A stretch of DNA of 64,000 nucleotides, from the NCBI GenBank assembly GCA_905178155.1, contig CAJINV010000001.1, positions 6,419,860 through 6,483,859 on the forward strand, read 5' to 3'. This stretch comes from Amoebophrya sp. A120 (taxonomy: Eukaryota; Protista; Dinoflagellata). Shown in pieces: positions 24,501-49,700 of this stretch. The notes below the pieces were generated by a model that was given only the letters and a program-made list of their open reading frames with translations, was not told the origin of the DNA and made no database searches. The stretch's first letter is position 1; each line of letters opens with the position of its first letter. The position numbers and the translations under genes were made by a program.

Positions 24501-27500
24501 GACGCACAAGCTTTTGCTCGCGAGGACGCCGCAGATGTGCTCCTGGGCCGAGTTGCAAGCATTCGCGAGCACGCCGATGGTTTTGGATCCGGGCTACAAG
24601 TTCCCGGAAGTCCCAGCGGTGTTGCAGATTGACCAACTGCGTATCTCCAGTATCCGCCTGCTAATCTGGGTGGAGCTCTTACTAGACAATATGGACTTCC
24701 TACCCGAGTCCGCCAAGACCGTGATTCGCGTCCTCTCTTTCGGCAACAGCTTCACAGTCGAGCGCGGCGAGCTGATTTTCGACGCCATTGGCGGGCCGCC
24801 TCAGCACCTGTCCACCAGCAACGTGTACGCGACCGCCGATGCCGCTGCCGCGGTGAAGGGCAAGGGTAAAAAGGGCAAAAATCTTGGCTTGCTCGGTCCG
24901 GTGCAGGAGGAAATCGCCATCGAGTCCGACCACAGTGCGGCCGAGTCGGAGAAGCCGGAGTACGTGGTGATTACGCCGTTCCGCGGTTCCATGCCAGTGT
25001 TTCTGCAGGGCCTGCTCTGCGAGTACACGCGCAACCTTCTGATCAACGTGATGAAAATCCTGGGCAAGTCCGGCACGCTCACCCTCGCGCGGTCGCCGTT
25101 GCAGGCCACTTCGAAGACCTTCGTGTTTTTCTCCGATTCGCTGGGAGGACTGTTCGCCGACGGCGCGCACATTTTCAACCACTTGACCTTTGATCCGGAG
25201 TACATCAGGAATCAGAAGAAAGTCCGGGCCATGAAGAAGGCCGAAATCGACGGTCTCATGGCAGGAGCAGGCGAAGCGCTGAAATCGCTGGGCGATGGCG
25301 CCGTAGGTTTGTTCGACATCGTCACCAAGCCGATCGAGGGTGCGCAAGAAGACGGCGTCGCGGGCTTCTTCACCGGCCTGGGGCAAGGGGCCATGGGCAC
25401 GCTTGTGAAGCCCTGGACAGCTCTGGGAGGGGCAATTGCCGACGTTGGTACGGGCATTTCCGCAGCGATTGCCACCGAGAAGACAGCCCAGAATAGGAAA
25501 GGGGTAAATCTAAATACATTCATAAATCATATTATAATAGTACTCAGCATTTTGTTTTCATTTCACCAGGTCCAGTTCGTTGTCGTTGCTTGTGTTTGCA
25601 TGGTTTTTTCTTTTCCTAGCTTGAGAATGTAGCTGCCACGCCATGAACATCCTTCAACAGCGGGAAGCAATGATTTCAAAAAATCAAATACGAAAACAGA
25701 TGGCCTTCGCACGCACCCTGATCGAGCCAAAGCGCCTTCCCCGGTTCCTGAGCGGCAACATGGGCGTGATCGAGTGGTACGACCCCATTGCCGCCCGTGT
25801 GCTCCACCATTGCCACCTGTTTGTCAGGCACGCGGAGCTGATGGTGCCCTTCGGACTGGTTCCCACGGCCGAAGCAGGCGCGCTTGGCGACGACGCGGCC
25901 GACGTGGACTACGGCCCGGCGATGTACGTTCTCTTCGCGCACCCAGACCACATTTCCTTCGCGCGCGTTCCGATGCGGGTGGAGTACAAGAAAAACGCGA
26001 TATCGCCGCTGGACGATGAAGAGGAAGAGGTCAACGTCCTCACCGCGATTGGCGAGGCCGGCGCGAACGTTTTGTCCGCGGCGTTGGTCTATCAACTGTA
26101 AAAATGTCTGGGTGTGGAAGATTTCGAAACTTGTGATGCACGTCTTGCATGAGCCATGATGTCTGTGATGCGCGCCCTAGCATCACATATTTTCGGAGGG
26201 CATCTTGATGCCTATTCCGCATGACAAATGCCCTATGTATCCTTGTAGCAAAACTTATACTCCTTTTGCTACTCATGCAGTACAGATTTTTTTGGAATCC
26301 AAATGCAGCATCACAAGTTGCATTCTTCCAGACCCAGACACTTTTGCAATCCATATGGTCCCTGCCGCGACGGCGGGAGCGCTGATGCAGAAGACCGCCG
26401 ACATGATTTTTGAGGAAGACGTATCCTGTGTAAAAACGTCCCCGCCACCCCAGAGTTGTCATGCAGATTTGCCATGACAGGAACATTTGTGATGCGCAAC
26501 CCAATGACAGGCATTTTCAATCGTGTTTGGGAACTTGTAATGCCGTAAACAGGATCAGAAGGTCGATTTGTGATGCGGCTTTCCTTGCTAACTTGCACTA
26601 CCTTACGGACTGAAACTCGTCATGCGTGACTCGTAAAACTCCTGGGTTTGTGTTGCAAAATCCCCATCCTGACTCTGGTGTGGGTACGTTTTTACTCAGG
26701 ATAAGACGACGATGTCTACAGCCTGGCTAACGTGGCGCCCGCCGTGCGAAACCGCATCAAGTGGCAGTGCTACCTCAACAACGTGCAGAAGGTCACAACT
26801 CAGAAGGGCGCGATCACGATGCGGGTGGGTGGAAAAAACCAAGACTCGAAAAAGCTGCCGCCCTTGAACTTCCTCCGCGCGGAATGGCTCCGAATGAAGC
26901 AACTGGTGGCGAATCAGGGCGAGACATTGTTGTTCTTCTGGCAGGAGTCAGCAGTGGAGCAGGAGCTGAAGTATTCCAACTATCAGCGGTACCGCCGAGC
27001 GAGGGAGCGCGAACTAGCGGCGCTGAACGAGGGTTGGGAGACGATCTCCATCGCCACAAGATACACGGACGACGTTCCCGCGGGTTCGCCCCCTGCGAAC
27101 AGGTTCGCCCCCGCATTGCCAACGATTCCGGATATTGAGGAAGATGAGGCAGCTAGCGGGAAGGCACAGAAAAAACGGGGAATAAAGGGTGAAGCCGAAG
27201 GCGGACCTCCGGAGCGAATGATGAGCATGGAAGATTTTCTGTCTCCGGACCGAGAGGGCGAAGACGGACAAAATTCGGAAACAACGCTGACCACGACCGC
27301 CGCGACCGCTTCAAGTACTAGCAAACAGATGCAACAAGGCCGCGAGGGCAGTGCGTACTTACCAGAACAAGCCGAGGGAAGTGCGTATGACATCTTTCCC
27401 GAGTTTCGTCAAACTACGGGGACATCGTCGCAACAGAGCGACGACGAGAGATCATCTGCAGCAAGCTCTTCCAGTGTCAACAGCGGCACTAGCGATAGTT

Positions 27501-31798: not shown

Positions 31799-34700
31799 AT
31801 GACCGCCCCAATTTCTGCTCGTCGTTCCAGCAACATGTTGCTACGCACTTTCGTGAGTGTAGCAGCAACTCAGCTGCTCACCATTGCTCCGACACCCAGC
31901 GCCGCGACGAAATATCACAGGAAAAAGTGTTAACGTTTGCGGAATTTGTGATGCGGCAATGCATTACAAAACGTGCCCAAATTTGTCATGCATAGCATGC
32001 ATACTAGGCTAGATTTGTAATACATGGCTGCAATCTGTGAAAACCGTAAACGTTGACATTTTTTCTTGTGATACGAAAATGATTCCGATCATGCTTCCTG
32101 CAAAGAAGGTGACCTGCCCCGAAATCGAAGTCGGGAATTTTTGCGGTGGGACGAGTCGGGAGCAAACTCCGACCTATGCCGCTTACCAGAGCGACCAAAG
32201 TACAGCCGCATCTCCTTATGGAGGACACAGCCCAGGAGGAAGTTTTGGATTCAATGTCGGCAACATGTCGCCCAACGGCGCAGGAGCTGCAGGAAGTCCG
32301 TCGAACTTTCAGTTTACGGCTGGCGGCGCAGTCAGTCCTTCCTGGCAGATCGGCGTCAAGTCAATGCTCGCGCGCGGCGGCAGCGCGCCTCCCGTAGTGC
32401 AGCGCGGCAGATCGGCGGGCGAGGTCGCGTTTACTGGCGCAAACAGTCAGCAGCAAGGAAGTGCTGCGGCGCGCTCTGGTTCGGTGCCGTTGCTGAATTG
32501 CTGTGGAGGCGGGGGGAACAACAGGGTGTATAAACGCCCGGCTGTGCCAAGTGTTGAACCCACGGCGAGGGCGCAGAGCATGTCAGACATGCCAAAGCAG
32601 ATGCTGCACTACATGAAAGATCAGTACTACAAGACCTCGTTCGGACGCGAGAACCCCATCACAGATTACGTCGATTTTACCAACAGCGTCTTCCTCGGCC
32701 GCGGCACGTCCGCGGTGGTGGTATCCGGCACCCTGAAACGGACCGGCGCACCGGTCGCCGTGAAGCGGTTTCCGAAGCGCAAGGACAAGAACAGTTTTGT
32801 CACGTGGACCGACTACTTGCAGGGAGAGCGCAGGTTCGAGATCGACCGGGCCCGGGACGAGTGCGAGTGGGCGCAAAAGATACAGGAGGTCGCCGGAAAA
32901 ACCAGGTTGTACAAGGGTATTACCTTCACGATTTTTCTGTTTCGTTAATAACAGGTCTTCCAATTGTAAGTACGTCTACTACTTCTCCATGTACTGACCT
33001 TTACAACCTGTACAGCACAAGCTCAAGCATGCACTTACAGATGCGTGCCAGATCTGTGCCCCCTTTGCTTCTAAATGTGATAGAGATAGTGATTATACCA
33101 TGCAGGGTGAAGTTTTGCAGGACGGTGCACTGGTTTGTATCTTTCTTGTTTTCGCTTTCGGTGATTCATAAAAAAATCTATAACCGCGCAAACGATCTTC
33201 AGTTTCAACCTGAAAAGATCCAAAAATCATTTTCCGGGGGCGTCACCCCGGGAAATAAATTTTAGATTTTTTTATGTAAGAATGTAGTGAAAAATCAATT
33301 TGATATGGTGGGACAAACCTTCACCCTTTCCTCATTTTATAAGTGAACCACTACCCTTTGCATTACTATTAATTTTTATAATTATGATAATTGCAATTCT
33401 GCATTCGGTCTGGTGGCAGCTCCATTTCTTCCGCTTTCGTCCTCGTTTTTATCCGTTCACCTTCGTCGATCTCGATAGCAAGAGAAGAAATTGCTATTCA
33501 TTTTGCATCGTTGTGTTCTCGTTTCGTCATCGGTTTTTTTTCGTCACAGCCATCGAATCGTTGAACGGGACGGAGATGGCGCGAAACGGATTGGATGAAG
33601 GCGATGATGGGCAACCGCACCTGAAAGATGCTTGAGGTTTTGTTTTTGATGAGAAAGCACTTATTTTCATTTTGACCGCAAGGCGAATCGAGCCGAAAGA
33701 CACGCACTGAAATCAAATTGAAGCTGAAGACGAAAAGTGAAAAAGAAAATGAAAAACAAAAAGCAAAATGAAAAATAGTACGATGCCGAACAGACGCAAG
33801 GCAGTCACAGGCTGGCCGTATCTGTCGAGCGTGTCGAAAACCTTCACCGCTCCGCCCACATCCGCCGTGTTCTCCATCGTTGTTCATTTTGCTGTGGAAG
33901 CTGCCTGTTGGATTTTTGTAGTCAGCCTTGCTGCACTTGGCCAAAGTGTCGGCTTTTGTTTTGGGTCGGAACTAAGAACCAGCTAGCACCTGTGGTTCAC
34001 ATCTTCGGAGTCTTACTCTTAATCGTTTTTGTTTTTCCACCTTCGTGCTCAGCTCCAAAGTAAAAGTTTAAGGCATTGTCGAGTTTCAATTTTAGCACAG
34101 AGAAAATCTAGAAAGTAGAAGCAGTTTTTTTGTCATCGTCTTATCGAAAGTCAAAGTCTAAGTCGAGAGTTATTCTGGTTTACCTCGTGCTCGTGGGTCG
34201 TGGTCGGAGTGTCGTCAGTTCGTTGTGGGAAAGTAGATCATGAGTTGCTCGCAGGATATCGGGATGGGGTCGCGGCCGTGAGTTGTAGAGTTGTATCGTG
34301 GTCGTGCTTTTTGTTTTCGGTCTTATTTGCTCGCTCGCGTTAGGACCTTGACCTTGAGCTTGACCTTCACCTTGACCTTCGGCCTCGACATCGAACAGCG
34401 CGCACTAGTACGGGCCCAGAATTAGAAATAGCACTACAGTACTAGCAGCAGTCTATCTTTTCTGTTTTTCATTTTCTTCTTCTCACCCTGACAACTGAGG
34501 ATGAGTTTCATACATCCGCGAGTCTAGCTCTAGACTTTTAGTTCGATCACAGATTTTGATTTACGTTTACGTTTAGACCTGCAAAAGCGTTTACAGTTTT
34601 AACCCAAGAAAAAGCAAAGTAAAAACATCATGCCGCCCTCTCCGCAGTATGGCGAGGATGTGCTGTCAACTTCTGGGGCGAGGTTTGCGCATCTCCAGAA

Positions 34701-37700
34701 GCTGCTTGTTTTCTATCATCCTACTGCTCCGCAATCCGCCGTCGAAGTTGGGATCGAAGTTGGGTCGAAGGTCGGGAAGGGACAACCTGGAAAACCAAAA
34801 ACGAAAACGAGCAGAGACGGTGACAAGGCTGCAGGATCAGAAAGCGAAGATGCGGCAGTTCCGAAGAAGGACGCGTTGCGAAAACGGTACGACGTGTGGA
34901 TCAACGAAAGTCCCGCGTTGCGGTGGGAGGACTTCGCTCGGATTCAGTGCAAAAAATTTGGAGCACCGTATTCCCGCGAAGAAGAAAACCAAAGCCAGGG
35001 CGAAGGCCTACTCTCTCAGCGCGTAGGCCCGGATGCGGAACAACAACAATCACAGCAACAAAAACAAGCACCTACTGGCACTGCTGCAAATGTTTCTTCT
35101 TTTGGCGCAGCGATGAGCCCGTCGGTGCAGATCGCCGCCCAATCATCGCGAGACAACTATCTGCGAAAGCTGCAAGACGACCGGCCCAAGGAGCACCTGT
35201 GGTACACTTTGGGAAAAAGCGGCGGCACGGCGCGAGCGCGGAACAAGACGGTGCAAATCACCCGCGACGCGAGCGCGCACAGTCGCCACACGAAGACGAC
35301 CCAAGGTGCCAAACTGCGGGTCGTGCATGGAAAAGCAAAGCCATCTTCTTCAAATACGCGAGCACTGTGTCCGCGACGGAAGAAGCAGGTCGTGGCTCAG
35401 CGGCGACGTGGAGATCTCGGGCCACTGGATGAGGAAGACGACCTGTTGGAAGACGACAACCCGAATCCGCCACCACGAAAAGATCCGGACGAGATGACGG
35501 ACTGTTTGACCGAAATTTCTGAAACGGACACGTCGTGCATCGAGTCCAGCAGTGACGAAGGCGAGGACAACAGCATTCAGACTGATGGGGATACAAGGCT
35601 GCACAACAAGCGGAGCGCTTTGTTTTCCGATGGTGTTCGGATCGCGGCGGGTGGATGGTCGGAAGACAAAGCGAAGAAAACCGCCATCAAAGAAGAAAAA
35701 GCAAAGGTGACCGAGGATGGGAACGATCGCAAAGAGGCTTCGAGAGCGGAGTTGCGGTTTTTCGACATCGCGCGGATCTCCGGCCGTGCCCGCATGATGT
35801 CGCTTCTCGTCTCTACCGGCGTGGTTGCTGATGATCGAGAACCGCGTCCATCCAAAAAAAAAAATGATACAAACGAGTCGCAGGAAACAACAGGCTCCGG
35901 GAAGACAGCAACTTCTTCAACATCTTCATCCGCAAGAGCGAAGCTCGGCTTCGCAGGGCGGGCAGCTGCAATGAAGCTGGATCTGGTGAGCAGTGGGTCT
36001 GACGTCGATGATGAACCTGTGTCGCAGATGGACTTGGACATCGGCGGTTCGCTCGCAGTTATTCCCGAAGATGAGGAGGGCGTCTTTCTCGACCCGAGTA
36101 CCGGGTTGGAGAAAAATGCAGACGGGTTTCGCAGCGTGACGAAGGACCGGATCGCGAAAATGAAAACCAAAGGAGCCAACAACAAGCAGGGCAGCTCGAG
36201 TTCCTCCGGATCCGGTCCACTGAAGCTGGACCCTGTCACGGGGTTGCCGCTGTCTTCCACGGGAAAACGGCCGCGAAGCAACACTATTGAAACGTTGCTA
36301 CCGCCATTAGGTACTTGTGCTTCTATCTTCAGCCTCTTCCTGTTTTTGGATTTGCATTTGATCTACCACTAAGTCGAACTCTAGCAAGCAACGCGCGCAA
36401 GTATCGTCTAAGATCGACGCTGACACTTTTGCGCATGACAGATTGGGTTTTCAACTTTATGCTTTTCGAAAGCGACTTGCTTTCGGTTTTGAATTTGATT
36501 TTGAAATACATAAAGTTGAATCAAACCCATCGAGCTTTAGATTTTGTTTTTTGAAAAGCAAAAATGTGAAGATGAAAACGACATCGGTTTCGACTTTGAC
36601 GCTGCAACGGCTTTTCAAAAACAAAACAAAAACAGAAGAAGACGAACACGAACCCACTAGCAGCCTGTTTGCTGGAAAGAGCGGAGCTGCATCTGCGGGG
36701 CAGGTGCAGACCCGCAGCGTGTTCATGTTGAATCCGGAGAATCTCGCGCGGGCGGATGCAGCGTCGGGCTTAGGCGGTAGCTTCGGGTCTTCTTCATCCT
36801 CGCGAGCTGCGGGGGAAGATCTGCAGGCGACTATGAGCGACATGTTCCGCAATGCCCGGGAAACAACTAGCATCTTCGGCGACGCGGTGACGATGGACGA
36901 CACGGCGTTGAAGTCTGCGGGCCCGACCGGAGAACTGACAAAAAGCGGGTACCAGTATGGGCCGGGGGTCAAAGAAGATCTCGGACAAAAGGAAAAAAGA
37001 CCAAGAATCGCGATCAGGTGCAGTCCCGATGCGACTCCATACGACGAGATCAAAGCCATGAATTGTTTCGCGACTTTGTTCAAGAGCGACTTCCGCGACC
37101 CGATGATCGTGTACAGCCACGACGTCGCTCTGCCGACAATCTCCACGGCATCGGGCGCGGAAAGTTTTCTGCAGGACCTGTACGAGGCTGCTTTCTCGGT
37201 GGGTTTTCCGTTGCCGGGAATGTGGTCGAAACTTTGCAGGCTGGGAGGGAAAATTTTGAAGTTTCGCCCGTCGTTAGTAGTTACTAGTGACAGTGGGTCG
37301 GACGTGAAGAAGGGGGTGAAGATGATGATGCAGTGGTGCGAGGCGCAGCGGAAGTACGACGCGGAGGAAAAAGATGGCGAGCCGCATTGGACAGTGTCGT
37401 GGTTGCAGTGTCAGCTCCACTTGGCGCACATCATAGGCGGAACAATCACCAGCGTAGCGTCGAAGTTGTTCAGTCTGGACTATCGCAAAAGCGTTGCCGC
37501 GGTTTCCAAAACTGTGAACTTGTGGACTGCACCGAGGAGAACAGGGAACGACCGCGGAGGGAGAGGAAAGAAAACAATTGAGGAGCTGAAGAAGGAGTTG
37601 TACGCCGTCGATGCAGAGCAGCAAAAACTCCTGGACGGGATGACAGCGATTGACCGAGAAATCTGGCACAGCGAGCGGATTCAGAGCGACCCGGTCTTGC

Positions 37701-40700
37701 AAGAAAAGCAGGCGAAGCTGGAAGAAAAAGTGGAGAAAAAGAAAAACCCGGTGAAACGAGTGAAGTCCTTCGTCCGCACCCGGTGGCTGAGTATCGGAAA
37801 GTGCATCAAAGGTCTTTGGACACAGCAGGAGGAAATCACAGCACGCATCCTGGACCGGACTGATAAGGATTTGCAGGATAAGAACCGAAAATTTTTGCAG
37901 CGGGCGAAGAAGGCGATGCTGGCGCCGCTGTGGTGGTCGGGTCTGCGGATTCTCCACCTGCTGCTCACCGAAATTGACCGGGTTGCTGGTGTTGTCATGC
38001 ATTCGACCAGCAAGGAGATGGACGGCGCCTCGGTGGAAGCGTTCGCCAAACATCTTCCCAGATGCCACTCCGTCGACTTGTGCCAGCGTGTCGGGGAGTT
38101 TTTGGTTACGCTCGGTGGGCTGGTCTATCGCGGCCTCGAAACAGTCGGTCTTGCGGGTCCTTTAGTCATTTTGTTTTATACATTGGCTAAAGAGCTCGAC
38201 ATCCGCCACCGCCCGCTCCGCTCGTGGCCGTACCGACTTGCGTTTTTATTTTCTGCGGACCAGAGCGAACGGCTGAAGACCATTCAGGACCTGTTGAAGG
38301 ATTGCGAGAGCGAAGCTGGTAGGAAGGACCTGCCGCTGGAGGTTCGGGATTTGTATCGGCTTTTCCATCTGGAGCTGAAAATGGTTGCGGAATCGCTCAA
38401 GAAGAAGAAGAACATCGGGCGGAGCCGGGCCTTCGTTCGAAACTTAGCGCCGATTATTCGGGCGTTTTTGGCTTCGAGCCAAATCGCCGAATCCCTGAGC
38501 TCCACTACCAGCTGGATCAAGCGAGAAGCTGGCGGTTTAATCGGAATGCTTCTTGCTTCTGCGCGTTTGTTTACGCGCCGCGGAGCAGGGCGGGACGTCG
38601 ACTTCGAACAGTATCTCTTCGTTGAGGACAACGCCCGATGCCAGAAAGCAACGATGCAAATCCGAAAGGAGTTGCTAACCCACGGGATACACGGCGCGCC
38701 GCAGATCAGTGATAGGTCGGATCACTTTCTGCGGAACCCAATAAACCCGCAACTCACGCCGGAAGCGATTGTTGCGGATTTTTTTGAAGTTTTGAACCGG
38801 CCGGACTGCCCGGAGGCGCCGAAGTTGGCCACAGGCGACAAAGCAAAAGGGAAAACTAGGGAAAGGCAGCAGTACGGCGCAGCGCCGCTGAGCATGAAAC
38901 TCTTTCAGTTTTCGGTTATGGACATCATCGGCATCCCCAAGTACGACAAAAACAACAACGCGAGAAAAGGAGCGGGCGCATCAAACTACTTCGTGTTGGA
39001 GAAATTGAAGAAAGACGCGGTGCTGTGCGAGGTGAACATCGTGCAAGGCGGGATGAAGGAGAAGGGTCACGAGGTGAGAATGGAAATTGACCTCGACGCC
39101 CAGTGCTGGTTCTCGGACGCTATTGGCGCGCGGAAAGAAGACCATCCCTCCAAGGCAGCAAAAAAAAACTTCAAAAACAAAAACCCGGAACTGCGCCCGG
39201 TGGTACTTGATGGCCAAAACGTGCTGAAGTACTTTCACATCGACACCAAGCAGCGGCGGAAGTACTTCCAGGTTCGACAGACGGAGGAATCTTATGTGGA
39301 GTTTTATTTTCAGCACCGGGTGCGGGCCGATGGAACACCGGATCCAAATCCGACGGCCTATCCGGGAAACGAAGCAGACCAGATTTGGGCTCGGGGTGAG
39401 CTGGTCCGCATGGAGTGGAATGACGCTTGTTTGTCGAAGGAAGTCGAAGAAACCAACATCGAGGAGAAAAAGTTGAAGAAAGCGTTGAAGCAGGACCGGC
39501 TGGATTCTCCCACGCGGCGAACGCGAGAATCAAAGTGGAACCTCGTACCGCTGCGGACCCGCGTCCCCGAGCTTGCAGTGAGTGGTCTAATCGGTCGCGG
39601 ATACGCGATCTACCAAATCGAGTCGAAGACGTGGTGGGGCCGGTTGAAGAATGCAGTTCCTTTTTCTCGGGGTAGTGTGCCAGCTGCTAGCGCCGCAGCT
39701 GTTGCTCCGCCGCAGGTTGCGCCGGACAACAATCCGAAACCCCAAGCGAAGCAAACCAAAAAACAAAAGAAAGCAGCTGCAGCAGGCGACAGTAAATCTG
39801 CAGGCGCGAGTGCGCGCGCGGGCGCACAGGTGGGCGCGGGCGTGCGCGCGCACACGCACACGGGCGTGCAGGCGCACGCAGGTACAGGCGCGGGCGCGCA
39901 GGCAGGCGCGGGTGCACGTGCAGGCGCGGGCGCGCAGGTGGGCGCGCAGGCGGGCGCGCAGGCGCACGTGCACGCGGACCCGCACGTGCACGTGCACGCG
40001 CAGGCGGGTGCGCAGGCGCATGTGCACGCGCGGGCGAGTGCGCGTGCGGACGCGGGCGCGCGCGCGCACGAGGCGGGTGCGAAAATAGTCGGACATGCTG
40101 GTGCGGAATTGCAAGCGGAAGTAGTTTCGGAGAATAAAAGTGGTGGCGACGGAAAAGTGAAGAAAACGCCAAACGGTGGCGTTTATCGGGATCGGTACTT
40201 CGGGGGGAAGACCAGAGAGGCGCTGGTGAAAAACATGATCGAGTACGAAAAGGGGTCGAGCGAGTCGTACATCGCTCCGGCGGGTGAGGATGTGCTAGTT
40301 GCTTCCACGACGCTAACGGCGTACCTGAAGGACAACAAGCTATTTGCAAAAAAACAAAAACGCAATGACAACATCGAAATGAATTCCGACGACGAAAGTA
40401 CCTACGAGTCGTCGGGAACCGACTCGGATTTCGACGAGTCTGACAGTTCTGACGAAGACTAAATGATGGCAGGGTGAGACGCTGAAGGCAGTGCTAGCGC
40501 TGCGCTTCTGATGTAAAACCCGCATGCGCTAGTAGGTCGAGCACTGCTGCAGCGTAGTAGTAAATTTTGTTTGAGCACTCACCTCCTTCTCTTTGTTTTG
40601 AAATTAGTTTCATTTTTCTACCTCGCGTTAAGATCCAGCATGAAGCGAATCTGTCATGCAAAATAAACGAAAACCAAAATTAAAGCGTGTACATTTTTAC

Positions 40701-43700
40701 TTAATGTTGCTTGAAATAGGTGGACAGAAGCTCCATGCAATAAGCTATCCACCGAGCAAAAGACGAGAGCTTCTTATTATTTATCAACGAGGCGCAACTA
40801 GGCGAATTTGCATCGCAAACCAATAAAATTATGCACAATAAATCGCCGAACTCGAGATGCAAAAGTTGACTGCAGTACTGCTAATTGCATCTGTTTTATA
40901 TGTACGTGTATGATTTTTGGCTCTAGAGTTTTGATCTTTTGATAGTTTTAGAATAGGAAAAAGCTAAAAAGTGCATCGAGATTTGTCATGCTAGAGCTAG
41001 AATCTTGAAACAAAATTCCTACCTGTGCGAAGATTTCTGGCGTCGTTTGGAGGTGTTTGAGCTCCGTTTCGCCGCTTTCTCGTCCTGCAGATCGAGGCAG
41101 ATTCGTGTGTTCCAAAGGGCAAAATAGATGAGATCGAGGCTGTCCAAGACTGCAGCGAACCGCTTCTGTTGTTGTTTTTTGATGAATGTGGGTCCTTTAC
41201 CGAGCTGAAAACTGATGACGTTCGACGCCAATCGAAGGCGATTTTGTATGATGAAACGACAACCAAAAAACAATGATTCAAAAACTAAATTGTACGCAAA
41301 GGGAGGTCGATCACTTCCAAAGGGACAGCCAACACATCACGAAGTGGCCAGGATCGCTTTGGAAGTGAAGGGCCTCCCTTTGCGTACAATTTAATTTTTG
41401 AATCATCATTTTTGGGATCGTTTTCCAACGTCCAACTTCGACTCATTTTAAGTTGTAAAGCCATCTCGTTTTGATTTTTTTCATTCTCATTCACCACCAA
41501 AAATATCATAGTAGGAGAAGAAAACCAGGTAGAAAATAAGCTAAGACCAAGTAAGTTGCGACCTATTTTCCATCTCTGTCAACCGGAGTTTCGTGTAAAA
41601 AAAGTTGCGCATCGACGTGCTTTTTGTGTAAAAAAATACTTATTTTCCATTGAATCCACCTCGAAAATGCCGCTTCCGACCGCAGCGGAAGTGAGCGACT
41701 TTGTCTCGTTACTGGATGCGGGAGAGGCTGGAAAGCCCGAGGCCGAGGCCTTTATGGCTCGGCTCTCGAAGCTTCCGTTCGACAGCAAAAATCCGAAATC
41801 CGTCGAAATTCCTCTGACCGAAGTGCACGTGTTGCGGAGCGGGCGCCACCCGCAAAACCGCGTTACAAACCCCGACAACCTGAAAACGTTGAAACACGCG
41901 ATGAAAAACAAGGGCAAAAAAGGAGGATATGAAGGAATGAAAGTCGGTACGTGCAAAATGTTTTTTCGTTTCACATACATTTTTCGTTCAAAAATATTAG
42001 CGCTCACTGTCATCCTATCGCGCAAATGTCTCGTTCAAAACTAGAGCTGCGTTGAGAATTTGTATTGCGCGTTTTGTTTTCTTTGCATCATTTAGATCGA
42101 TAGTCTCTATGTCAGTCCTCATGTAGATGTACTTGCACATGCACAGGATAACTGAAACCACACCCGCACGCAAACAAGAATAAAACTAAAACCCAATCCT
42201 AATACCAGTTCTCTTTGCTGTCGATTACGGCAACACCGGAAAGTGCGAGTACGTGTGCGCCTTCCTGCACGGCGGACATACGATCCTCGCCCTGTACGAA
42301 GAGGGGTGGTTCGATTTCGGGATCAGTGTGATTTTACTCGACCCGGAAGTGGACCAGTACGAGGCTACCAGAGAAACACGCGCTACTGCAAAAAAAAATG
42401 GAAATGCAGCAAGATCAGGAGCACTTCCTTATAGTTTGACTTCGTTATCGTTTTGCACAAAATCAAAATTAAAACTTGTTATGCAAAAAGTGAAAAGGAA
42501 ATCTGTAATGCAAAAGATTTGCCACGCAGAAAATTTGTAATGCAGAAAAAATGAAACGCCATGCAAAGCGTCTTGCTCTTGTGCCATTTCTTTTTGCAGT
42601 AGCAGCTGTTTCATTCCATAGCAGAATTAATCTCGCAGTTCGTGCTCCTGAAAAACGACGAACCCGTCGGAGTGGCTCCGTCCTGGCTGGAAGTCATCAA
42701 GCGCACCGCGCGGGTGCGTTTCCTTCTTTCATTTTAGATGAAGCTCTTAGTCGTTGCAGCTCCAACTCCATTCGTTCCTGCGTCTCCAGCTTCAGCTCGA
42801 TCTTCAAAAGTTATCCTTTCTGATTTCCATTCTGCAATGCAAGTTGTAATGCTCCTTCATGTTTGAGTGTGGTTTTCGTTTTTCATTTACTTTTTCGCGA
42901 TCTAATTTTCGAATGAAAAAATGAAAATCAAAATATCAGAACGACGAAGCCTATGCGGAACACGAGGAAAACCAAAAAGCCAAGGGCAGAGAGCCCCGCC
43001 CCATGGAGGAATGGACCGAGGGCCAGGTGGGAAAAGAGTGGAAGGGGCAGGTGAAGACTTACAAGCAAACGGCGTGCGCAATGGTGAAGAAGGGTTTGTT
43101 ATGCATCGAAAGCGAAAATATAGCACCAGCAGGTGGGGACAAAAGCAAAACCAAAAGTGAAGGGCATGTCTTTTTTTCATCCGCATGACACAAAAATAAA
43201 AAAACCAAGAAAGCAGATGCTTGTCATACTGAGAAATTTTTTGATCTTGGTTGGAGCCTGTCATGCAACTGCAACTGCTAGTGGTGCAATATTTTTGAAA
43301 ATGCATGACCGTGCCACGAATGGACCATGTTCGGAATCGCGATCAGCACCCAAGTGCCGCGGCCGCGGGAGAAGGACGAGCACATGACGCTGTTCAGCTT
43401 CGCGCACGTATTTTTTTACTTCGTTATCGTTTCAAAATCAAAAATCAAATTCAAAAGCAAAAGTAGAGCTACGCTGTGGATTAGCATTACAAAATGAAAA
43501 CATTTTTCAAAAAATTTTTTCGCTCAGAGTCAGACTTTCGCCTCCCGATCCGAATCCATTTCGAAAAAAATAAAAACTAAAAACAGAACAAGCTGATGCG
43601 CGTGGTCATCTACGACGAAGAAACTCCGGTGCGGAGTTTGCGGCTCGATATGCACTTTGCGATTTGGACCACATTGACCTACGCTTGCGGGAAGCCGGAG

Positions 43701-46700
43701 GACCAGGTCAATCTGCAGGAGGATGATTTGAAGCGGCTGCGGAGTCTGATCACATCCAACGTGTCGGCGTTGAAGTTTGACGACTTGAGCGAGCAGGCGA
43801 AGACGAAACGGGACCCCGCGGCGATGGAACAACTGACTCCGATCTCGCGGAAGGAAACCAGAAACAAAATCATCCAGTTGTTCCGCGCAATGAAGACGTT
43901 GAAAAACTTCTACGGTAGTTTGAAGTCTTTGACTTTGGGATGGACAAGGCCGATCCGAAATCGTACGAGTTGAAGTACAACGGAAACTGGATCATCCCGC
44001 GGGACTACACCAAAACGCAGCAAGAAGTTGCGGACGAAAAGTTTCTGCTGAACGAGTTGCCGAAGCTGATGACCCAGATCCACATGTTCACCGCCAACCG
44101 CTGCTCCGCGTTGACCCTCGCCGTGTGTCTGGCGGACAAGGATTTCGACGAAACGCCCAGCCTCGCGAAGTTCATGTACGTCTGCGACCGCGAGGAGAAC
44201 AGCTACTACGTCGAGAAGCTGACCGGTGCGGAACCGAAAGACGCGAAGGACCGGATCCAGAAAGCCGTGGACCAGGACCTGCTCTTGTTGCCGCTGTACG
44301 CGAAGCATGACTGCTACGCTTTGGACGAAACCGTGGATGTGCGATCCAACTGGGGGTCGAAGCCCGGTAAGAAGACTTCCAACAAAAAGGGAAAGAAGGA
44401 CGCGGAAGCGGAGGTGAAAGTGCAGGTACTACTCCTAACTTAGTTGTTTTCTTTTCAGTTCGAATCTGACGGAACATATTTAGTTTTTCACTTTTTTGCT
44501 CGCATAGCAAAATGCTTCTTGATTTGAAAATGAAAATGAGTTCACGTGTGCGCGCGCGCACGTGCGCGTGCGTGCACGTGGGTGCGCGTGCACATGCGTG
44601 CGTGCGTACACGTGCGCGCGCGCCCACCTGCGTGCGTGCGTACACACGCATGCATGCGCGCGCGCGCCCACGTGCGCGTGCATGTGTGCGCGCGCACGTG
44701 TGCACACGCGCGTACATGCGTGCGCGCGCACACATGCACACGTGCGTGTGCACGCGCGCCCGTGCGTGCACGCGCGCGTGCGTGTGCGCGCCCGTGTATG
44801 CGCGCGCACGTGCGCATGCGCGTGTTGGTGTTCGTTTTCATTTTCAAGTCACAAAGAACTGCGCTATGCGAAAAAGAAAAAGTGAAAACCAGAATTGTTC
44901 TGCTTTTGTCTGACTCGTTAATAGTTTTTTAGTTTTAGTTTTACTTTTACACACATTTTTATTTGCAAACTTGTGATGCAAAAAAACAGAACTGAACTTA
45001 CGACGTTGCCATGTGACTACGCATGACAAACATCGAAAAAAAAACCAGGTCAAAGAAGGCCAGGGTGCCGAAGAGGAGGAAACCGAGGATCAGAAAAAGT
45101 CCCGCGAAAAACGTGAGAACGTGCTGAAGAGCGATCCGAAGAAGGCCAGCCAGGAGTTCTTGAAGCAGAAGCCCTTCCGATCCCCGCTGTGGTGCTCCGC
45201 CGTGCCCAGTGAGTTCGCGTCGCAGACGGAGGGGGAGATGCAGAGGAACGCCGAACGTGTCCCCCGCCTGCGTATCCTCGTGAAACCCGACGCAAACATG
45301 TACAAACCCCCGACCAACGACGGAGAGGAGTTTCAGCTGGACACGCTGTTTTACTATCCCCAGAAGAAGAAGCTCGGCGGTGACTGGGACTTTCAGGACG
45401 ACCTCACCCACACGTTGTCGCTCTCGTAAGATTTGACTTTTTGAAAAAAATTGACATTGACTTTTTTCACAGCATCACAAACGCATAAAAAGCACAAACA
45501 GATCTGAAATGGCACCGCGTGACAGATGCAACATGACACCAACACTCTTTTCAATCCATTTCGATGCGAGCACTATTAGCATCTTCATTGCCGCTCCACC
45601 GCATGACAAACGAGAATCACAAACAATGCATCACAGCAGGCGCGTGAACTATTTTTGGAAACCGGCCGACAACAATAAAGTCGACCGGTTGACCATGATC
45701 TCGTGGAAGACCTGCGAAGTCCCCTTCTGGGGAAAGGATGGGAAGAAGACGTCGATTAAGTTTCAAGTCCCGGTGGAGGCGTCGGTGAAAAGCAGTGGAA
45801 ACCCAAAGAAGGCGAAGCAGAGCAACATCTTGTGCTGAACCCCAAGAGACTACGGGTATGGAGTCGGAGACGGACGGATACGAAAATCAAAATTAATAAA
45901 CAGGTAAGCGCGCCTACTCATACACCTACCTCTACTTTAGATTTAGTTTAAGTCTTTGGCTTCTTGTTCTTTTAGTTTTAGAAACCACGCGAAGCTTTGA
46001 AACATCTTGCGCGCGACTTCTCGTCGCGTTCAAAAATTTTTGGTTTTGTAGCGGCTTCTTTTCGGTCGTGAAGTAGACACTTAGACTCAAGCCCCGTTGT
46101 TAGTCAAATCCCAATCCCAAAAGCAGCACCTACTCCCACTGACTCCCAGTCCCACACCATCACAAATTGAAAAAAATACGCAGGTAGTCGCAACAGCACT
46201 ACGGCCATGAAGGTACACAGCAACGGTCTTGCTCTTCGTGGTTTCAAGACTCTTCTTCTCGACATGAGCATCAAGAAAAGCTACCACAAAAACGAACTGC
46301 TCTTCCACGACGAATGCAAGTGATCGACTATTTTTCCTACCTGCTGCGGCTGCGCGGTGTTGGTCAAGTTCTTCTTTTTGGAAGCAAAGGCGCGGAGGGG
46401 CGATGGCGGTTGATCGGTGGGAAATGCCACGCAACCTAGGAGGAGAAGTTTCCAACTTTCACAAAGCTGCAGCCTACCGGTTTACTTTCGATCTAGATCT
46501 AGAAGCAAAAAAAAACATGAAGTTCTTTTGTCTTGCACAGTGACAATTCAGATTGCGTTTCGATTTTTTACGTTCGCGTTAGATTTCAGTTTAAAGCTTG
46601 AATCTCAGGAAGCAAAGCCTTCAAAGTAAAAACTACTTACGACTGGTCGAGCCCCAGATCGCCGACCTAGATTGTGACTTACGTTTACGCTTACCGCTAC

Positions 46701-49700
46701 TGTCAGTGTAGCTCGACTTCATCATTAGTTTTAACTTTTAAGTTTGTGTCTGTCACCGACTCAGTAATAGTCTTCAGCTACAGTTTAAATTTCAAAATCT
46801 AAATCATCATCCTCATCAACAAACAGCTTGTTTGTCAGCAGCGGCATGCTTGGCCTTTTGGTCAAAGCGTGGCCGTGTGCTTTTTCGCTTTATTGAAAAA
46901 ACAAAAAACAAAGCTACAACCTAATCTTCGTTTCCACCTCCGGGTGTAGTCATGCGACGGCTGCTACTTGCCAATCATCAGGCCCTCGGGTCGTACTAGT
47001 ACAAGTACTAGATCTAGAACTAATTCTAAGACAGGCAAAACCAAAATTAAAATTTTCAGGAAGGCGCTAATTTTACCCCAAGCGGAAGAGGAAAGGTTGA
47101 ACAAAATCAAAAAGCGAGCGCGAGAAAGAAATCCGCTGCACCTCTTCCAGTATCTTCCACTACTAGAACTAGGAGTTTCGAACTCGATGCAACTTGTCGA
47201 CTTTCGCTTTCATTCTTTGCGACGGCAAGATTGAAGTAGAGGCGCATCTTCACCAATTGCGATGCGGATGCTTTTTTCTTCGACGAGGTGGAGGCTCGAA
47301 GATTTTGACTATGAGACTCTCCTTCTCAACCTTTAAATTTTGAATGTCGACCTGTACCTGTAGACTCTCGAAACCGAAAAAACAAGAGCCAAAAAATGGG
47401 CCGCGTTCTCACGATGCAATGAGAACGACGCGAAGATGTTCGCGCTCGTGATCGCCTGGCAGTTTCTGAAAAAAGCTGAAACTTAGAGGGAGATGGATGG
47501 ATGAAGAATGTGAAATCGCAAAGGAGATCAGACCGTGTCTAGATCCAAAAAAAAGAAAGCCGAAGTTCCGCCAAAGACTGGAAGTTGATCGCCTGGATCC
47601 AAAGCAGGCGACCGCTCAGCTCCGAGGGGTCTAGAAGATCAAGCGAAAAAAAAAAAACGTGGATCGCCTGCTTCCACCTACAAGCTTGGAGTTTTTGGAT
47701 CTCCTTGCACTGTGCGTTTTGAATTTTTCCTCATAGTTTTTTCTTTTTCATTTCAAACTGTCAGGGACCAATGTACTTCTACTTGTGCCTGTAGGTCGTT
47801 ATCGCTTTCGTCTGAGTTTACTCTAGCTTCTCGCTTCCCTCCACAGCAAAGAAAGTAGTTGCCCTTCCGTCTGAGTTTACTTTTTTTCTTTTCCCTCGAA
47901 CCTGATCTCGGGTAGCGTAACTTCGATTCCGATCTCTACGTTTACTTTCTTTTTTTGCAAAAGCAAAAAAACAACATCAAAATGTCGGACCAGAAAGCGA
48001 AGCTGGTGAAGCTGGGCCCGAAGTGTGCCGTCGATGATGACGAGGATGGTCCGCCGCCGGGAGGGGTGCGATTTAGAACCATACACGGGGCAACACGGGC
48101 GGAAGTGGAAGAATTACACAAAGACGAAATCAACAAATGGGTCCCCGCGAAGAACGGACACATGAAGTGCATTATGTTCTTGGATGATGTTGACGAAGAT
48201 GTCCCCGGATGCACCCAGGCGGAGATGTGGGTACTAATGCTGGCGCTTTTGTTTTTTTGTTTTGCATTGAGAGGGATTTTGCGTTTTCGAGTCGAAGTCT
48301 AAATTTCAAACCTAGCAGTGGGATCAAACCGACAAGGAGGAGAACTTCGTGGACAACCTTTTTGGGATGTTACGGGGCCAGACCAAGCGGAGAACCGGGC
48401 CAGAACAAGTGGAAGTGGATGCGTCCGAGATGACGAAACAGGAGCAGCCGGAAATCATCAACCTGATTTTCAACATGGCGGAATCTGATGATAACGCGGC
48501 CTGGGCGAAGGCTTTTTTGGTGGACGAGGCGACCGGTGGTGCTTACGGATCAGCTTCTTCTTCTTCTTCGACTGGTTCCGGAATTACTCCTGGTGGAGCT
48601 TCTTCTTCTTCGCGCCCGAACAACGAACAGATGGAAGAAAAGACGAACGACGACGATGCGAGCGAGGAGATGGAGGTGGAGGCGGAGAGCACCCCGACCA
48701 CCAAGGCCGGGAAAAAGAAGAAGAAGCAAAAGACCAAGAAGTAGACATCTTTCACCTGTTCAGCGCGTCGAGCTCGAACGGAAAAGCGTCGGAATCGGCA
48801 CAACAAGTGCTTCTTCTACATCTTCAGCTTCTAACTCTACTGCTAAAACAAGAAGCTCAGACTTTTGATGACGCGAATGGCAACGAGAAACAAGCACAAG
48901 TAGATGAAAAAAAAACGACAACGAAATGCAGCCGGAGCTGTGAAATTTTTTATGGGTGTGTTCGGCGCTCCCTTCGGTGTCTTTCTCCTTCGTTGATGGG
49001 TGTCATTGGTCTGACGATGGTTCATCGCGTCCTACGACATTGCCCCGACCACTCTGACCTTCCACTGAAGCCGGCGCAAAAATGGAATGCAACAGTCGTC
49101 AGGACCGACGTCGTTATATAAATTCAGGGGCGTGGGCATCCTTCTAAACACCCACTTTTCGCATGCCAAAGCTCAACATCAAGATCAAAATCGTATTGAG
49201 AAAAAGTGGCAAATCGGTTCAAAAAAAATAGAAGTGAAGACGTTCACGAACAAAGATAATCATGCCAATTTTCATAGTTATAAAAATTGATAGTATTTCA
49301 AAGGGTAGTGGTTCACTTATAAAATGAGGAAAGCTGAAGGTTTGTCCCACCATACAATTTGACCTATTCCAGTAGGACATTCGTACAAATTTAAATTATG
49401 TGTGTGTGTGTGTGTGTGTGTGTGGTCGTCGATGCGCATATTCCAATAACCGCCAGCGTGCTGTATAATGTTATGCTCGACGCTAGTACGGAGGATCGAT
49501 GCTTAAACCAAAATTTCACTGGCTGCGCCCATCACGCACGACTGCACTTTTCAAAGCACCACTGGACTCATCTTCCTCACAAGGTATTGGACGGAACTTC
49601 GCGCATTGTTTGCGAATGAACATCGGCGAGGTGGAGATGCGACCGCACACCGATCCGGACACCGGTTTGCTGAATCCGCAGTGGCGGGAACTGGGCCATT

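What the first reader, a model, noticed from the sequence alone, without database searches (positions are those of the whole stretch)
33296..49362. 16-kb giant hAT-type transposon carrying multi-exon cargo genes
Seen: ~88-bp TIRs, a perfect 8-bp TSD (CAATTTGA) and three same-strand genes inside. Established: an 8-bp TSD plus D/D/CxxH/TRW/E motifs is the hAT signature, and typical hAT elements are a few kb long with a single gene. Inference: this is an unusually large cargo-carrying cut-and-paste element. Its near-identical TIRs, intact TSD and uninterrupted transposase suggest a fairly recent insertion.
Basis: partly seen in the sequence, partly recalled or inferred. Interest (0 to 1): 0.95.

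Follow-up and report, generated by a model that had tools for sequence, protein, structure and literature searches.

The report
Giant Hermes-like transposon inside kinase gene
A 16-kb jumping gene with matching inverted ends and an exact 8-base target duplication sits inside a protein-kinase gene of what is probably a parasitic-dinoflagellate genome; its very large enzyme is predicted to fold like the Hermes/hAT transposase, and at least one of its extra genes likely belongs to the element family and is not captured host cargo.

Summary
The element spans 33304-49354. Its 88-nt inverted ends match at 81 of 88 positions, and a perfect CAATTTGA duplication flanks it. All detectable coding sequence lies on the + strand.

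The large gene has two exons and an intact 1875-aa reading frame. Pfam and PDB sequence searches find nothing, and only 5 relatives turn up among 1.84 billion representative proteins; three are from Amoebophrya sp. AT5.2. The D, D, CxxH, RW and E motifs are conserved in these relatives. A low-confidence model has Hermes as its best structural match (Z 8.8-9.4). So it works like a hAT transposase, but membership of hAT by sequence models is not shown.

- **Gene 2:** it is colinear with the C-terminal half of an Amoebophrya protein that also carries the transposase. It is therefore probably a companion gene of the family. In this copy a 31-nt gap, relative to a second copy, shifts its frame.
- **Gene 3:** a 225-aa orphan, 81% identical to a protein on another contig.
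- **Other copies:** contigs from one sample hold a second, diverged full-length version, plus other ends that start exactly at 33304 with different flanks.
- **Host site:** the element splits a protein-kinase gene, probably within an older intron.

The result is a new variant of a known kind.

The parts
33296..33303 (.). left copy of the 8-bp target site duplication CAATTTGA
33304..33391 (+). left terminal inverted repeat, 88 nt, starting TATGGTGGGACAAACC
   Evidence: Other contigs break off exactly at 33304.
34630..36310 (+). transposase gene exon 1. It encodes the low-complexity N-terminal region, with short motifs colinear with the N-termini of P0001, P0003 and P0004.
36311..36515 (+). predicted GT..AG intron (205 nt, phase 1) joining the two transposase ORFs
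   Evidence: The second copy diverges across 36313-36509. No RNA evidence.
36516..40462 (+). transposase gene exon 2. With exon 1 it gives an uninterrupted 1875-aa frame ending in TAA.
36947..38671 (+). catalytic core (575 aa). Motifs: D at 37028, D at 37289 and/or 37301, C..H at 37409-37420, RW at 37781-37786, E at 38489. The predicted strand order is RNase H-like, followed by a helical insertion.
39515..39646 (+). conserved C-terminal block of the transposase, shared with P0003 and P0005; function unknown
41667..45429 (+). gene 2, the multi-exon companion gene. Coding blocks lie at about 41667-41946, 42210-42356, 42602-42717, 42939-43090, 43310-43407, 43587-44425 and 45049-45429. It is colinear with P0003 residues 1571-2435.
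43938..43939 (+). frame break in gene 2. The second copy has 31 extra nt here, which would put ORFs 43581-43973 and 43919-44443 in one frame.
   Evidence: (table 5c)
47982..48744 (+). gene 3: two exons (47982-48230 and 48316-48744) with an 85-nt GT..AG intron, giving a 225-aa acidic orphan protein
49268..49354 (-). right terminal inverted repeat, 87 nt
49355..49362 (.). right copy of the target site duplication CAATTTGA
32013..32945 (+). host protein-kinase gene, upstream part. It holds the glycine loop and the VAVK lysine (Pkinase profile positions 3-40).
49487..52013 (+). host protein-kinase gene, downstream part. It holds the hinge, HHDLKAEN (Pkinase profile 97-136, at 49976-50149) and a DFG motif after 50211.

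Best explanation
This is a 16,051-bp TIR-bounded DNA transposon (33304-49354) flanked by an exact 8-bp target duplication, and it likely moves by cut-and-paste using its own 1875-aa enzyme, which is predicted to have a Hermes/hAT-like DDE core.

Shown directly:
- the ends and the duplication
- an intact two-exon transposase frame
- conservation of D, D, CxxH, RW and E in five distant relatives
- a second, diverged version of the whole unit in the same sample
- other ends that start at the same base with different flanks
- a host protein-kinase domain split by the element

Inferred:
- The enzyme binds the long TIRs, cuts both ends (by analogy with hAT, via hairpins on the flanking DNA, with the conserved W and CxxH taking part), and inserts with an 8-bp stagger.
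- Gene 2 is a companion gene of the family. It lies next to the transposase in this genome and within the same gene model in Amoebophrya sp. AT5.2. Its role is unknown. In this copy it is probably defective because of a 31-nt gap.
- Gene 3 is a small acidic orphan kept in both copies.
- The insertion lies about 390 nt after the last upstream kinase coding block and roughly 130-280 nt before the first downstream one. It therefore probably landed in an existing intron of several hundred nt, in sense orientation. Either that intron has grown to roughly 16.7 kb or the gene has been inactivated.
For: Ends and TSD.

Transposase frame: searches give 5628 nt with a single terminal stop.

Family size: 5 proteins at E <= 0.001 among 1,835,955,588 representatives. 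Three of them are named Amoebophrya sp. AT5.2 by EukProt.

Motifs: C155, H158 and R279 are invariant in 6 of 6 sequences. D28 and D115/D119 are present in the 5 sequences that cover them. E515 is present in 5 of 6.

Fold:
- The AF2 model shows strand-strand-strand-helix-strand-helix-strand followed by helices, with D28 after strand 1, D115 after strand 4 and CxxH after strand 5.
- In Foldseek, 8 of the top 10 rows are Hermes chains, with a best E of 0.011.
- In the VIA-align second look, the top 5 entries are all Hermes: Z 9.4, 8.6, 8.2, 7.8 and 7.7, with 176-249 residues aligned; the next entry scores 7.0.
- In the VIA-align search of 48,161 chains, the only chain with Z >= 8 is Hermes 8edg_A (Z 8.8, rmsd 8.3, 240 aligned).

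Companion gene: window blocks hit P0003 only beyond its transposase, and in order (residues 1571, 1701, 1783, 1908, 2340). Three blocks (E 1.7e-4, 1.7e-5, 1e-3) beat the best of 100 shuffles each (0.019, 0.03, 0.027).

Second copy:
- In X1 a 1188-nt contig with 0 differences and a 1165-nt contig with many differences both lie on 33482-34669.
- Likewise a 1303-nt contig (0 differences) and a 1326-nt contig (136 differences) both start at 41086.
- X2, from the same sample, shows the same pairs.
- Indels between the copies are multiples of 3 in exons: -6, -2 and -1 three bases apart (3 in all), -6, -3, +6, -6. In introns they are not: -1, +7.

P0007 is 81% identical to gene 3 exon 2 and has the same 2-residue gap as the second copy.

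Kinase split: Pkinase profile positions 3-40 lie upstream (E 0.0016) and 97-136 downstream (E 0.00081).
Against: - No sequence model recognises the enzyme: Pfam finds nothing, and PDB sequence and profile searches find nothing relevant.
- The model is poor (mean pLDDT 54.9, pTM 0.40), and the helix carrying E515 has pLDDT under 50.
- No Foldseek match reaches E <= 0.001. The tool's own note says a best Z of 7-8 is common for models with no true match.
- The TIRs (88 nt) are far longer than I recall for typical hAT elements, and the TSD does not fit the recalled nTnnnnAn preference.
- No empty site, excision footprint or transcript was seen.
- The second copy's own flanks were not seen. The contigs that break at 33304 match only 34 nt under the aligner's threshold.
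- Two of the five colinear gene-2 matches (E 0.012 and 0.17) are no better than shuffles.
- P0003 may be a merged gene model.
Confidence: 0.7

Rival explanations
1. The element is a real cut-and-paste transposon, but its enzyme belongs to a separate lineage and not to hAT proper. That lineage could be new, or Mutator-like. It would lie within the wider group of DDE transposases that share the C/DxxH motif, which by my recollection includes hAT, Mutator, P and Kolobok. Long TIRs and a second element-encoded gene are what I recall of MuDR.
For: - No hAT Pfam family matches in 0 of 6 members.
- The TIRs are 88 nt long.
- There is a conserved second gene.
- The structural matches to Hermes are only moderate.
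- As far as I recall, the PDB holds no Mutator or Kolobok transposase to compete with Hermes.
Against: - The TSD is 8 bp.
- About 235 residues of predicted helices lie between RW and E, which I recall is close to the spacing in Hermes.
- The RW motif is conserved.
- Hermes is the top match in two searches, and part of the insertion domain is aligned (model 21-437 against chain 175-456).
- No MULE or KDZ Pfam family matches either.
Confidence: 0.2
2. One reading: an ordinary hAT transposase whose element has captured unrelated multi-exon host genes as cargo.
For: - Gene 3 has no detectable relative outside the second copy, so its origin is open.
- Two of the five gene-2 matches to P0003 are not individually significant.
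- P0003 could be two neighbouring genes merged by an annotator.
Against: - Three gene-2 blocks match, in order, the stretch that follows the transposase in a relative only about 30% identical.
- No stand-alone homologue of that stretch was found among shorter proteins.
- Indels between the two copies keep the reading frames.
Confidence: 0.07
3. The unit is not mobile as a whole. Two small related elements, or a chance inverted repeat, bracket ordinary host genes, and the second version arose by segmental duplication.
For: No empty site or excision product was seen. Only the left terminus is backed by other contigs.
Against: - The exact 8-bp duplication sits immediately outside 88-nt inverted ends, and the terminal 20-mer occurs only there.
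- The interior encodes a DDE-type enzyme.
- The unit interrupts a kinase domain.
- Nothing else in the window resembles the element (best blastn E 0.87).
Confidence: 0.03

Closest known systems
hAT superfamily transposons (Hermes, Ac, hobo, Tol2); the solved example is the Hermes transposase (PDB 2bw3, 4d1q, 6dww, 8edg, 8sjd)
   Same: - 8-bp target duplication and a single TIR-bounded unit.
- A DDE core with D after strand 1 and D after strand 4.
- CxxH directly after strand 5, an RW motif, a long helical insertion, then E.
- Hermes is the best structural match.
   Different: - No hAT Pfam domain (dimerisation domain, DUF659, BED) is detectable.
- The enzyme has 1875 aa, against the roughly 600-800 aa I recall.
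- The TIRs are 88 nt, against the 10-30 nt I recall.
- The element is 16 kb, with a conserved second gene and a third gene.
- The family is seen so far only in Amoebophrya-like data.
MuDR/Mutator-like elements (as I recall them)
   Same: Long TIRs, a second element-encoded gene beside the transposase, and a CxxH motif after the second D.
   Different: I recall Mutator duplications as mostly 9-11 bp, with a much shorter distance from D to E and no RW-type insertion domain. No MULE Pfam family matches. Not testable by fold here.
Introner elements and TIR transposons of Amoebophrya (Farhat 2021, PMC7789003, passages read; Gozashti 2025, PMC12130899, passages and part of supplementary file 8 read)
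   Same: A transposon lying within a gene, in sense orientation, in a lineage where repeated introns with inverted and direct repeats are abundant. The same kinase gene also carries high-copy intron-sized repeats.
   Different: - The published introners are mostly short and non-autonomous, with direct repeats of 3-5 nt. This element is autonomous-looking, 16 kb long and makes an 8-bp duplication.
- Its ends lie inside non-coding flanks, not at the exon borders.
- Farhat et al. report two putative transposases in one strain and none in the other.
- Among the places I read in file 8 (31-60 of 63 for the word hAT), one Amoebophrya row mentions hAT-like termini: A120 fam135, 4 copies, consensus about 18.8 kb, finally filed as non-LTR/Unknown. 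Whether it is related was not tested.
Giant hAT-like elements noted earlier in this scan in dinoflagellate-like genomes (e1-7628739, e1-7695589; unchecked AI notes)
   Same: Very large TIR elements with an unclassified Hermes-like transposase and extra genes of unknown function.
   Different: A sequence look-up found no look-alike window. One of them makes a 4-bp duplication.

Membership tests
hAT superfamily | 8-bp target site duplication | tested here: met
   CAATTTGA lies on both sides and cannot be extended.
hAT superfamily | RNase H-like DDE core with a large all-helical insertion before the catalytic E | tested here: met
   The secondary-structure order and the motif placement fit. Hermes is the best match in Foldseek (E 0.011), in the VIA second look (Z 9.4) and in the VIA wide search (Z 8.8, the only chain at Z >= 8 of 48,161). 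Caveat: the model's mean pLDDT is 54.9, and the E515 region is below 50.
hAT superfamily | CxxH and RW signature motifs in hAT order and spacing (motif names and Hermes spacings are recalled) | tested here: met
   C155, H158 and R279 are invariant in 6 of 6 sequences, and W280 is present in 5 of 6. The order is D28, D115, C155, H158, W280, E515.
hAT superfamily | hAT C-terminal dimerisation domain (Pfam PF05699) or other hAT sequence models | tested here: not met
   0 of 6 members hit any hAT-related Pfam family at E up to 10. Language-model neighbours include hAT families, but only at 0.85, which is a lead only.
hAT superfamily | short TIRs beginning with the YARNG-type terminus (consensus recalled) | tested here: inconclusive
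   The TIR is 88 nt long and starts TATGG, which fits 4 of the 5 recalled positions.
hAT superfamily | N-terminal BED-type zinc finger (common, not universal; recalled) | tested here: not met
   No Pfam zinc-finger hit in exon 1 or exon 2.
Mutator-like elements | MULE / Transposase_mut catalytic domain | tested here: not met
   No such Pfam hit in any of the 6 members. The fold comparison is not informative, because I know of no solved Mutator transposase.
P element / Transib-RAG / piggyBac transposases | fold closer to these solved transposases than to Hermes | tested here: inconclusive
   None appears in the 50 entries listed from the 48,161 chains or from the 994 chains.
Autonomous TIR transposon (general) | more than one copy, with the same termini and different flanks | tested here: inconclusive
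   A second full-length version exists in X1 and X2 (one sample). Contigs that start at 33304 have other flanks: 2 in X1, 2 in X2, 1 in X3. Those contigs align over only 34 nt, the right end was not seen, and no whole genome is held.

The most novel reading that the evidence does not exclude
This is a founding member of a new lineage, at superfamily level, of giant multi-gene DDE transposons. The lineage would be restricted to Syndiniales and dinoflagellates, only distantly related to hAT, and would require a conserved partner protein. It would also be the missing autonomous source of transposase for some of the TIR-type introner elements that flood Amoebophrya genes.
Probability: 0.15. Interest if true: 0.85.

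Novelty: new variant of a known kind. Interest (0 to 1): 0.62.

Why it matters
- **A candidate autonomous element.** The published Amoebophrya genomes are described as having almost no DNA transposases, yet thousands of transposon-like introns whose means of movement is unknown (Farhat 2021, passages read). An intact, Pfam-invisible, Hermes-like transposase in an Amoebophrya-like genome, lying inside a gene, gives a concrete candidate to test. It also shows that standard annotation misses this family.
- **A conserved second gene.** A gene travelling with a hAT-like transposase across about 70% protein divergence would be unusual for hAT-type elements, if it is confirmed.
- **Limits.** Mobility, expression and any link to introners are untested.

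Tried and rejected
- **Whole genome:** none is held, so copies, duplications and empty sites could not be catalogued.
- **RNA:** no RNA holder was listed. Three raw RNA runs with the same species label laid 0 reads on 19 kb that included host exons, so this is no test of expression. In X7, which is only guessed to be RNA, contigs lie on low-complexity repeats; a 2576-nt contig starts at 49640. No conclusion was drawn.
- **Empty site:** no joint from 33303 to 49363 was seen. The joints 33495>37400 and 33498>44926 have sides of only 25-26 nt. They might be internal-deletion derivatives, but the support is too weak to count.
- **Depth:** not used as a copy number, as the tool warns.
- **Metagenome scan:** the alignment was not conserved enough to search with. 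The single protein gave 589 pattern matches, none confirmed.
- **Gene 2 function:**
  - The single-sequence AF2 model of P0003 residues 1555-2040 was useless (pLDDT 34.4).
  - No shorter homologues were found.
  - The Pfam hit is only a sub-threshold bZIP_Maf.
  - PDB hits to designed beta-trefoils (E 1e-5) come from one short motif counted three times in a symmetric protein, each stretch with E of 6-10, and that motif is absent from the window's gene. I rejected them.
  - My impression that the 'LFAVD...HGGHT..AL' block resembles a ParB/sulfiredoxin motif, and that the transposase C-terminal block resembles an AP2-type domain, rests on recall only. No search supported either.
- **Protein atlas:** the call for P0003 failed on length.
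- **Subterminal repeats:** no clear arrays were found in the 400 nt at either end.
- **Rest of the window:** no other fragment of the element.
- **Literature:** two full-text searches returned no paper on a giant or multi-gene hAT, or on this family, among the rows listed (12 of 199 and 15 of 307). This does not show that none exists.


Full report
**1. The observation**

The two ends are real.
- The left arm starts at 33304 and the right arm ends at 49354.
- The first 20 nt (TATGGTGGGACAAACCTTCA) are identical in the two arms. This 20-mer occurs nowhere else in the 64-kb window even with 3 mismatches allowed (2 matches, 0 expected from shuffles).
- A global alignment gives 81 matches over 88 nt, with six mismatches and one indel. 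Similarity decays beyond that.
- Directly outside the arms lies CAATTTGA, at 33296-33303 and 49355-49362. It cannot be extended.
- The element proper is therefore 16,051 bp.
- blastn of the element against the rest of the window finds nothing (best E 0.87).

**2. What is inside**

I scored ORFs with a codon log-odds measure trained on long ORFs elsewhere in the window. All 12 ORFs inside the element with positive coding potential are on the + strand. They group into three genes.

*Gene 1 (transposase).*
- The 589-aa ORF 34603-36372 and the 1366-aa ORF 36362-40462 overlap by a few bases in different frames.
- A GT..AG intron at 36311-36515 (phase 1) joins them into a 5628-nt frame with one terminal stop. 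This gives 1875 aa starting at the ATG at 34630.
- The upstream ORF carries short motifs that lie, in the same order, in the N-terminal parts of the relatives.
- The second genomic version diverges across 36313-36509, as expected for an intron.
- There is no RNA evidence for this splice.

*Gene 2.*
- It starts at the ATG at 41667.
- It runs through at least seven coding blocks to the stop at 45427-45429.
- The last two junctions (44425/44426 GT and 45048 AG/45049) are in phase.
- The earlier junctions are uncertain. Non-canonical introns are reported to be common in Amoebophrya (Farhat 2021, passages read).

*Gene 3.*
- It consists of 47982-48230 and 48316-48744, separated by an 85-nt GT..AG intron.
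- The product is a 225-aa acidic protein.

**3. The enzyme**

Sequence searches:
- Pfam finds nothing relevant in either transposase ORF or in any of the relatives.
- PDB sequence and profile searches find nothing relevant.
- A word-based search of 5.8 billion clusters gave one hit.
- An exhaustive phmmer search of 1,835,955,588 representatives gave five hits at E <= 0.001. They are P0001 and P0005 from Logan contigs, and P0003, P0004 and P0006, which EukProt names as Amoebophrya sp. AT5.2. Identity is about 30%.

The window therefore probably comes from an Amoebophrya-like (Syndiniales) genome. This is an inference. The window's own protein is not in the collection.

Motifs in the alignment of the 575-aa core:
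- C155, H158 and R279 are invariant in all six sequences.
- D28 (SPDATP) and D115/D119 (TSDSGSD) are kept in the five sequences that cover them.
- W280 and E515 (IAESLS) are each kept in five of six.
- The order and spacing are D28, D115, C155/H158, W280, E515. As I recall the Hermes numbering (D180, D248, C265/H268, W319, E572), this follows the same plan.

Structure:
- The AlphaFold2 model built from the six-sequence alignment is weak (mean pLDDT 54.9, pTM 0.40).
- Its secondary structure is strand, strand, strand, helix, strand, helix, strand and then only helices. D28 lies just after strand 1, D115 just after strand 4, and CxxH at the start of the helix after strand 5.
- Foldseek against 350,542 PDB chains gives no match at E <= 0.001. 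However, 8 of its top 10 rows are Hermes transposase chains (best E 0.011, best probability 0.94).
- VIA-align on Foldseek's top 994 chains ranks five Hermes entries first: Z 9.4, 8.6, 8.2, 7.8 and 7.7, with 176-249 residues aligned. Generic RNase H-like folds follow at 7.0 and below.
- VIA-align against 48,161 representative chains, run independently of Foldseek, finds a single chain at Z >= 8. It is Hermes 8edg_A (Z 8.8, rmsd 8.3, 240 aligned, model 21-437 against chain 175-456). The next chain scores 7.0.
- The tool notes that a best Z of 7-8 is common without a true match, so this is moderate support, not proof.
- Language-model neighbours include DUF659, Dimer_Tnp_hAT and ZBED1 RNase-like clusters at 0.85, which is a lead only.

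Taken together with the 8-bp duplication, the enzyme works like a hAT transposase. Membership by sequence model was tested and not met, so I call the family hAT-like and unclassified.

**4. The 'cargo'**

*Gene 2 against P0003.* BLASTP of the window's downstream ORFs against the five relatives gave hits to P0003 only in the part beyond its transposase region. The hits are in strict order:

| Window | P0003 residues |
|---|---|
| 41802-41900 | 1571-1603 |
| 42952-43065 | 1701-1739 |
| 43626-43925 | 1783-1882 |
| 43931-44287 | 1903-2018 |
| 45142-45411 | 2339-2435 |

- With composition-based statistics the E-values are 0.17, 0.012, 1.7e-4, 1.7e-5 and 1e-3.
- In 100 shuffles of each ORF, the best E-values for the last three were 0.019, 0.03 and 0.027. 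Those three are therefore significant. The first two are not significant on their own.
- So the gene that follows the transposase here is homologous to the stretch that follows a roughly 30%-identical transposase in another Amoebophrya genome.
- The simplest reading is a companion gene inherited with the family, not captured host cargo.
- P0003 may be a true fusion or two merged neighbouring genes. I cannot tell which.
- Its function is open. Section 9 lists the checks that found nothing.

*Gene 3.* Its only hit is P0007, a 130-aa protein from an NCBI record on an 8.8-kb contig. It is 81% identical.

**5. Other copies**

One DNA sample holds the stretch, in coded runs X1 and X2.
- At 95% likeness, a 1331-nt contig crosses the left junction (32025-33355) without a difference. 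This may be the window's own source, so it is not independent.
- At 82% likeness, a second version of almost the whole unit appears in both runs.
  - A 1188-nt contig (0 differences) and a 1165-nt contig (74 differences plus gaps) both lie on 33482-34669.
  - A 1303-nt contig (0 differences) and a 1326-nt contig (136 differences, 10 gaps) both start at 41086.
- Of 139 X1 contigs laid, 83 were at 99% or more, 13 at 95-99%, 22 at 90-95% and 21 under 90%.
- The listed indels between the versions keep the frame in exons: -6; -2 and -1 three bases apart; -6; -3; +6 in transposase exon 1; and -6 in gene 3 exon 2. That last one is the same 2-residue gap seen in P0007.
- The indels in predicted introns do not keep the frame (-1, +7).
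- This pattern suggests that both versions evolved under selection for coding. Only 12 of 120 indels were listed, however.
- The exception lies between 43938 and 43939. There the other version has 31 extra nt that would join ORFs 43581-43973 and 43919-44443 in one frame, matching the continuous P0003 sequence. In the window's copy gene 2 is therefore probably broken.
- Contigs in X1 (2), X2 (2) and X3 (1) match 33304-33337 and then run on, before 33304, into unrelated sequence. After 33337 their sequence still looks related to the TIR, but with indels. This places an element end exactly at 33304 at other loci.
- I did not see the right-end equivalent or an empty site.

**6. Where it sits**

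- The ORF just upstream (32013-32945) ends with a glycine loop and a VAVK motif. It matches Pkinase profile positions 3-40 (E 0.0016).
- Just downstream come, in order, a hinge-like LYLIYQLAGTPVVDYL, then HHDLKAENVL (49976-50149; Pkinase positions 97-136; E 0.00081), then LIDFGS.
- Each hit alone is below Pfam's cut-off. Together they are complementary, colinear halves of one domain.
- The element therefore interrupts a protein-kinase gene, in sense orientation.
- About 390 nt of non-coding sequence separate it from the last upstream coding block, and roughly 130-280 nt from the first downstream one.
- The likeliest history is insertion into an existing intron of several hundred nt.
- Whether the gene is still spliced across about 16.7 kb is unknown.

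**7. Comparison with what is known**

- *hAT.* As I recall them, hAT elements are 3-5 kb long, with short TIRs and one gene. This one shares the duplication length, motif plan and predicted fold. It differs in size, TIR length, enzyme length and the extra conserved gene, and no hAT sequence model detects it.
- *MuDR.* By my recollection it is the nearest analogue for long TIRs plus a second gene.
- *Farhat et al. 2021* (passages read) report few transposable elements in two Amoebophrya genomes. They found two putative transposases in one strain and none in the other, and abundant introner elements with inverted repeats of 8-20 nt and direct repeats of 3-5 nt.
- *Gozashti et al. 2025* (passages read; places 31-60 of 63 for 'hAT' in supplementary file 8) attribute Amoebophrya introners to diverse transposons.
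  - In the places I read, hAT-type introners with 8-bp duplications are listed for Polarella.
  - One Amoebophrya row is flagged for hAT-like termini. Its consensus is about 18.8 kb, it has 4 copies, and it is finally filed as non-LTR/Unknown. Whether it is related to this element was not tested.
- *Literature searches.* Two searches showed no paper on this family among the listed rows.
- *Earlier notes of this scan.* They describe giant Hermes-like elements in dinoflagellate-like genomes. They are unchecked, and a sequence look-up found no look-alike.

**8. Verdict**

This is a real, large TIR transposon with an intact, highly divergent Hermes-like transposase, at least one family-conserved companion gene and a small third gene. 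At least two diverged versions are present, and the element is inserted inside a kinase gene. It is a new variant of a known kind. Mechanism, expression, mobility and any role in mobilising introners remain inferred.

**9. Gene 2 function: checks that found nothing**

- No Pfam family reaches threshold.
- No shorter homologue was found.
- The single-sequence AF2 model of the P0003 stretch was useless (pLDDT 34.4).
- The designed-trefoil hits in the PDB are an artefact of a repeated short motif.

Noticed in passing
window 49903-50150: The sequences on both sides of a 109-nt kinase exon (50013-50121) are high-copy in run X1. The bin depth is 827, against about 25 elsewhere. Many contigs break off at 50012 (7 contigs) or start at 50122 (8 contigs). 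This fits two repeated intron-sized elements (introners) flanking the exon.
   Followed up: partly
window 41236-41443: A 208-nt near-palindrome (two 90-nt arms, 78% complementary, 28 nt apart) lies just upstream of gene 2. It could be a small foldback or MITE-like insertion, or a regulatory hairpin.
   Followed up: no
window 39796-40090 and 44540-44830: GC-rich GCGCGTGCAC-like low-complexity arrays occur twice. One lies inside the transposase coding frame, where it reads as an Ala/Gly/Arg/His-rich tract. The other lies in the last intron of gene 2. They are partly complementary to each other. High-depth contigs of run X7 match them.
   Followed up: no
window 39515-39646 and about 40200-40290: A conserved C-terminal block of the transposase (YAIYQ..K.WW, then later YFGG.TREAL) is shared with P0003-P0006. 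From memory it resembles an AP2-type DNA-binding domain split by the low-complexity tract. No search supports this.
   Followed up: partly
window 42210-42320; P0003 about 1610-1650; P0006 about 1240-1270: Gene 2 and the regions downstream of two related transposases share a block: a hydrophobic strand, then Y..., then GGH(T/R)..AL. From memory it resembles the ParB/sulfiredoxin motif. Pfam does not support this.
   Followed up: partly
window 49400-49424: A (GT)n microsatellite lies about 40 nt beyond the right target duplication, within the presumed host intron.
   Followed up: no
window 16333-25632: A single 3099-aa open frame has a sub-threshold match to the VPS13 adaptor-binding domain. All long ORFs with family hits in the window are on the + strand, which fits unidirectional gene arrays.
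   Followed up: no
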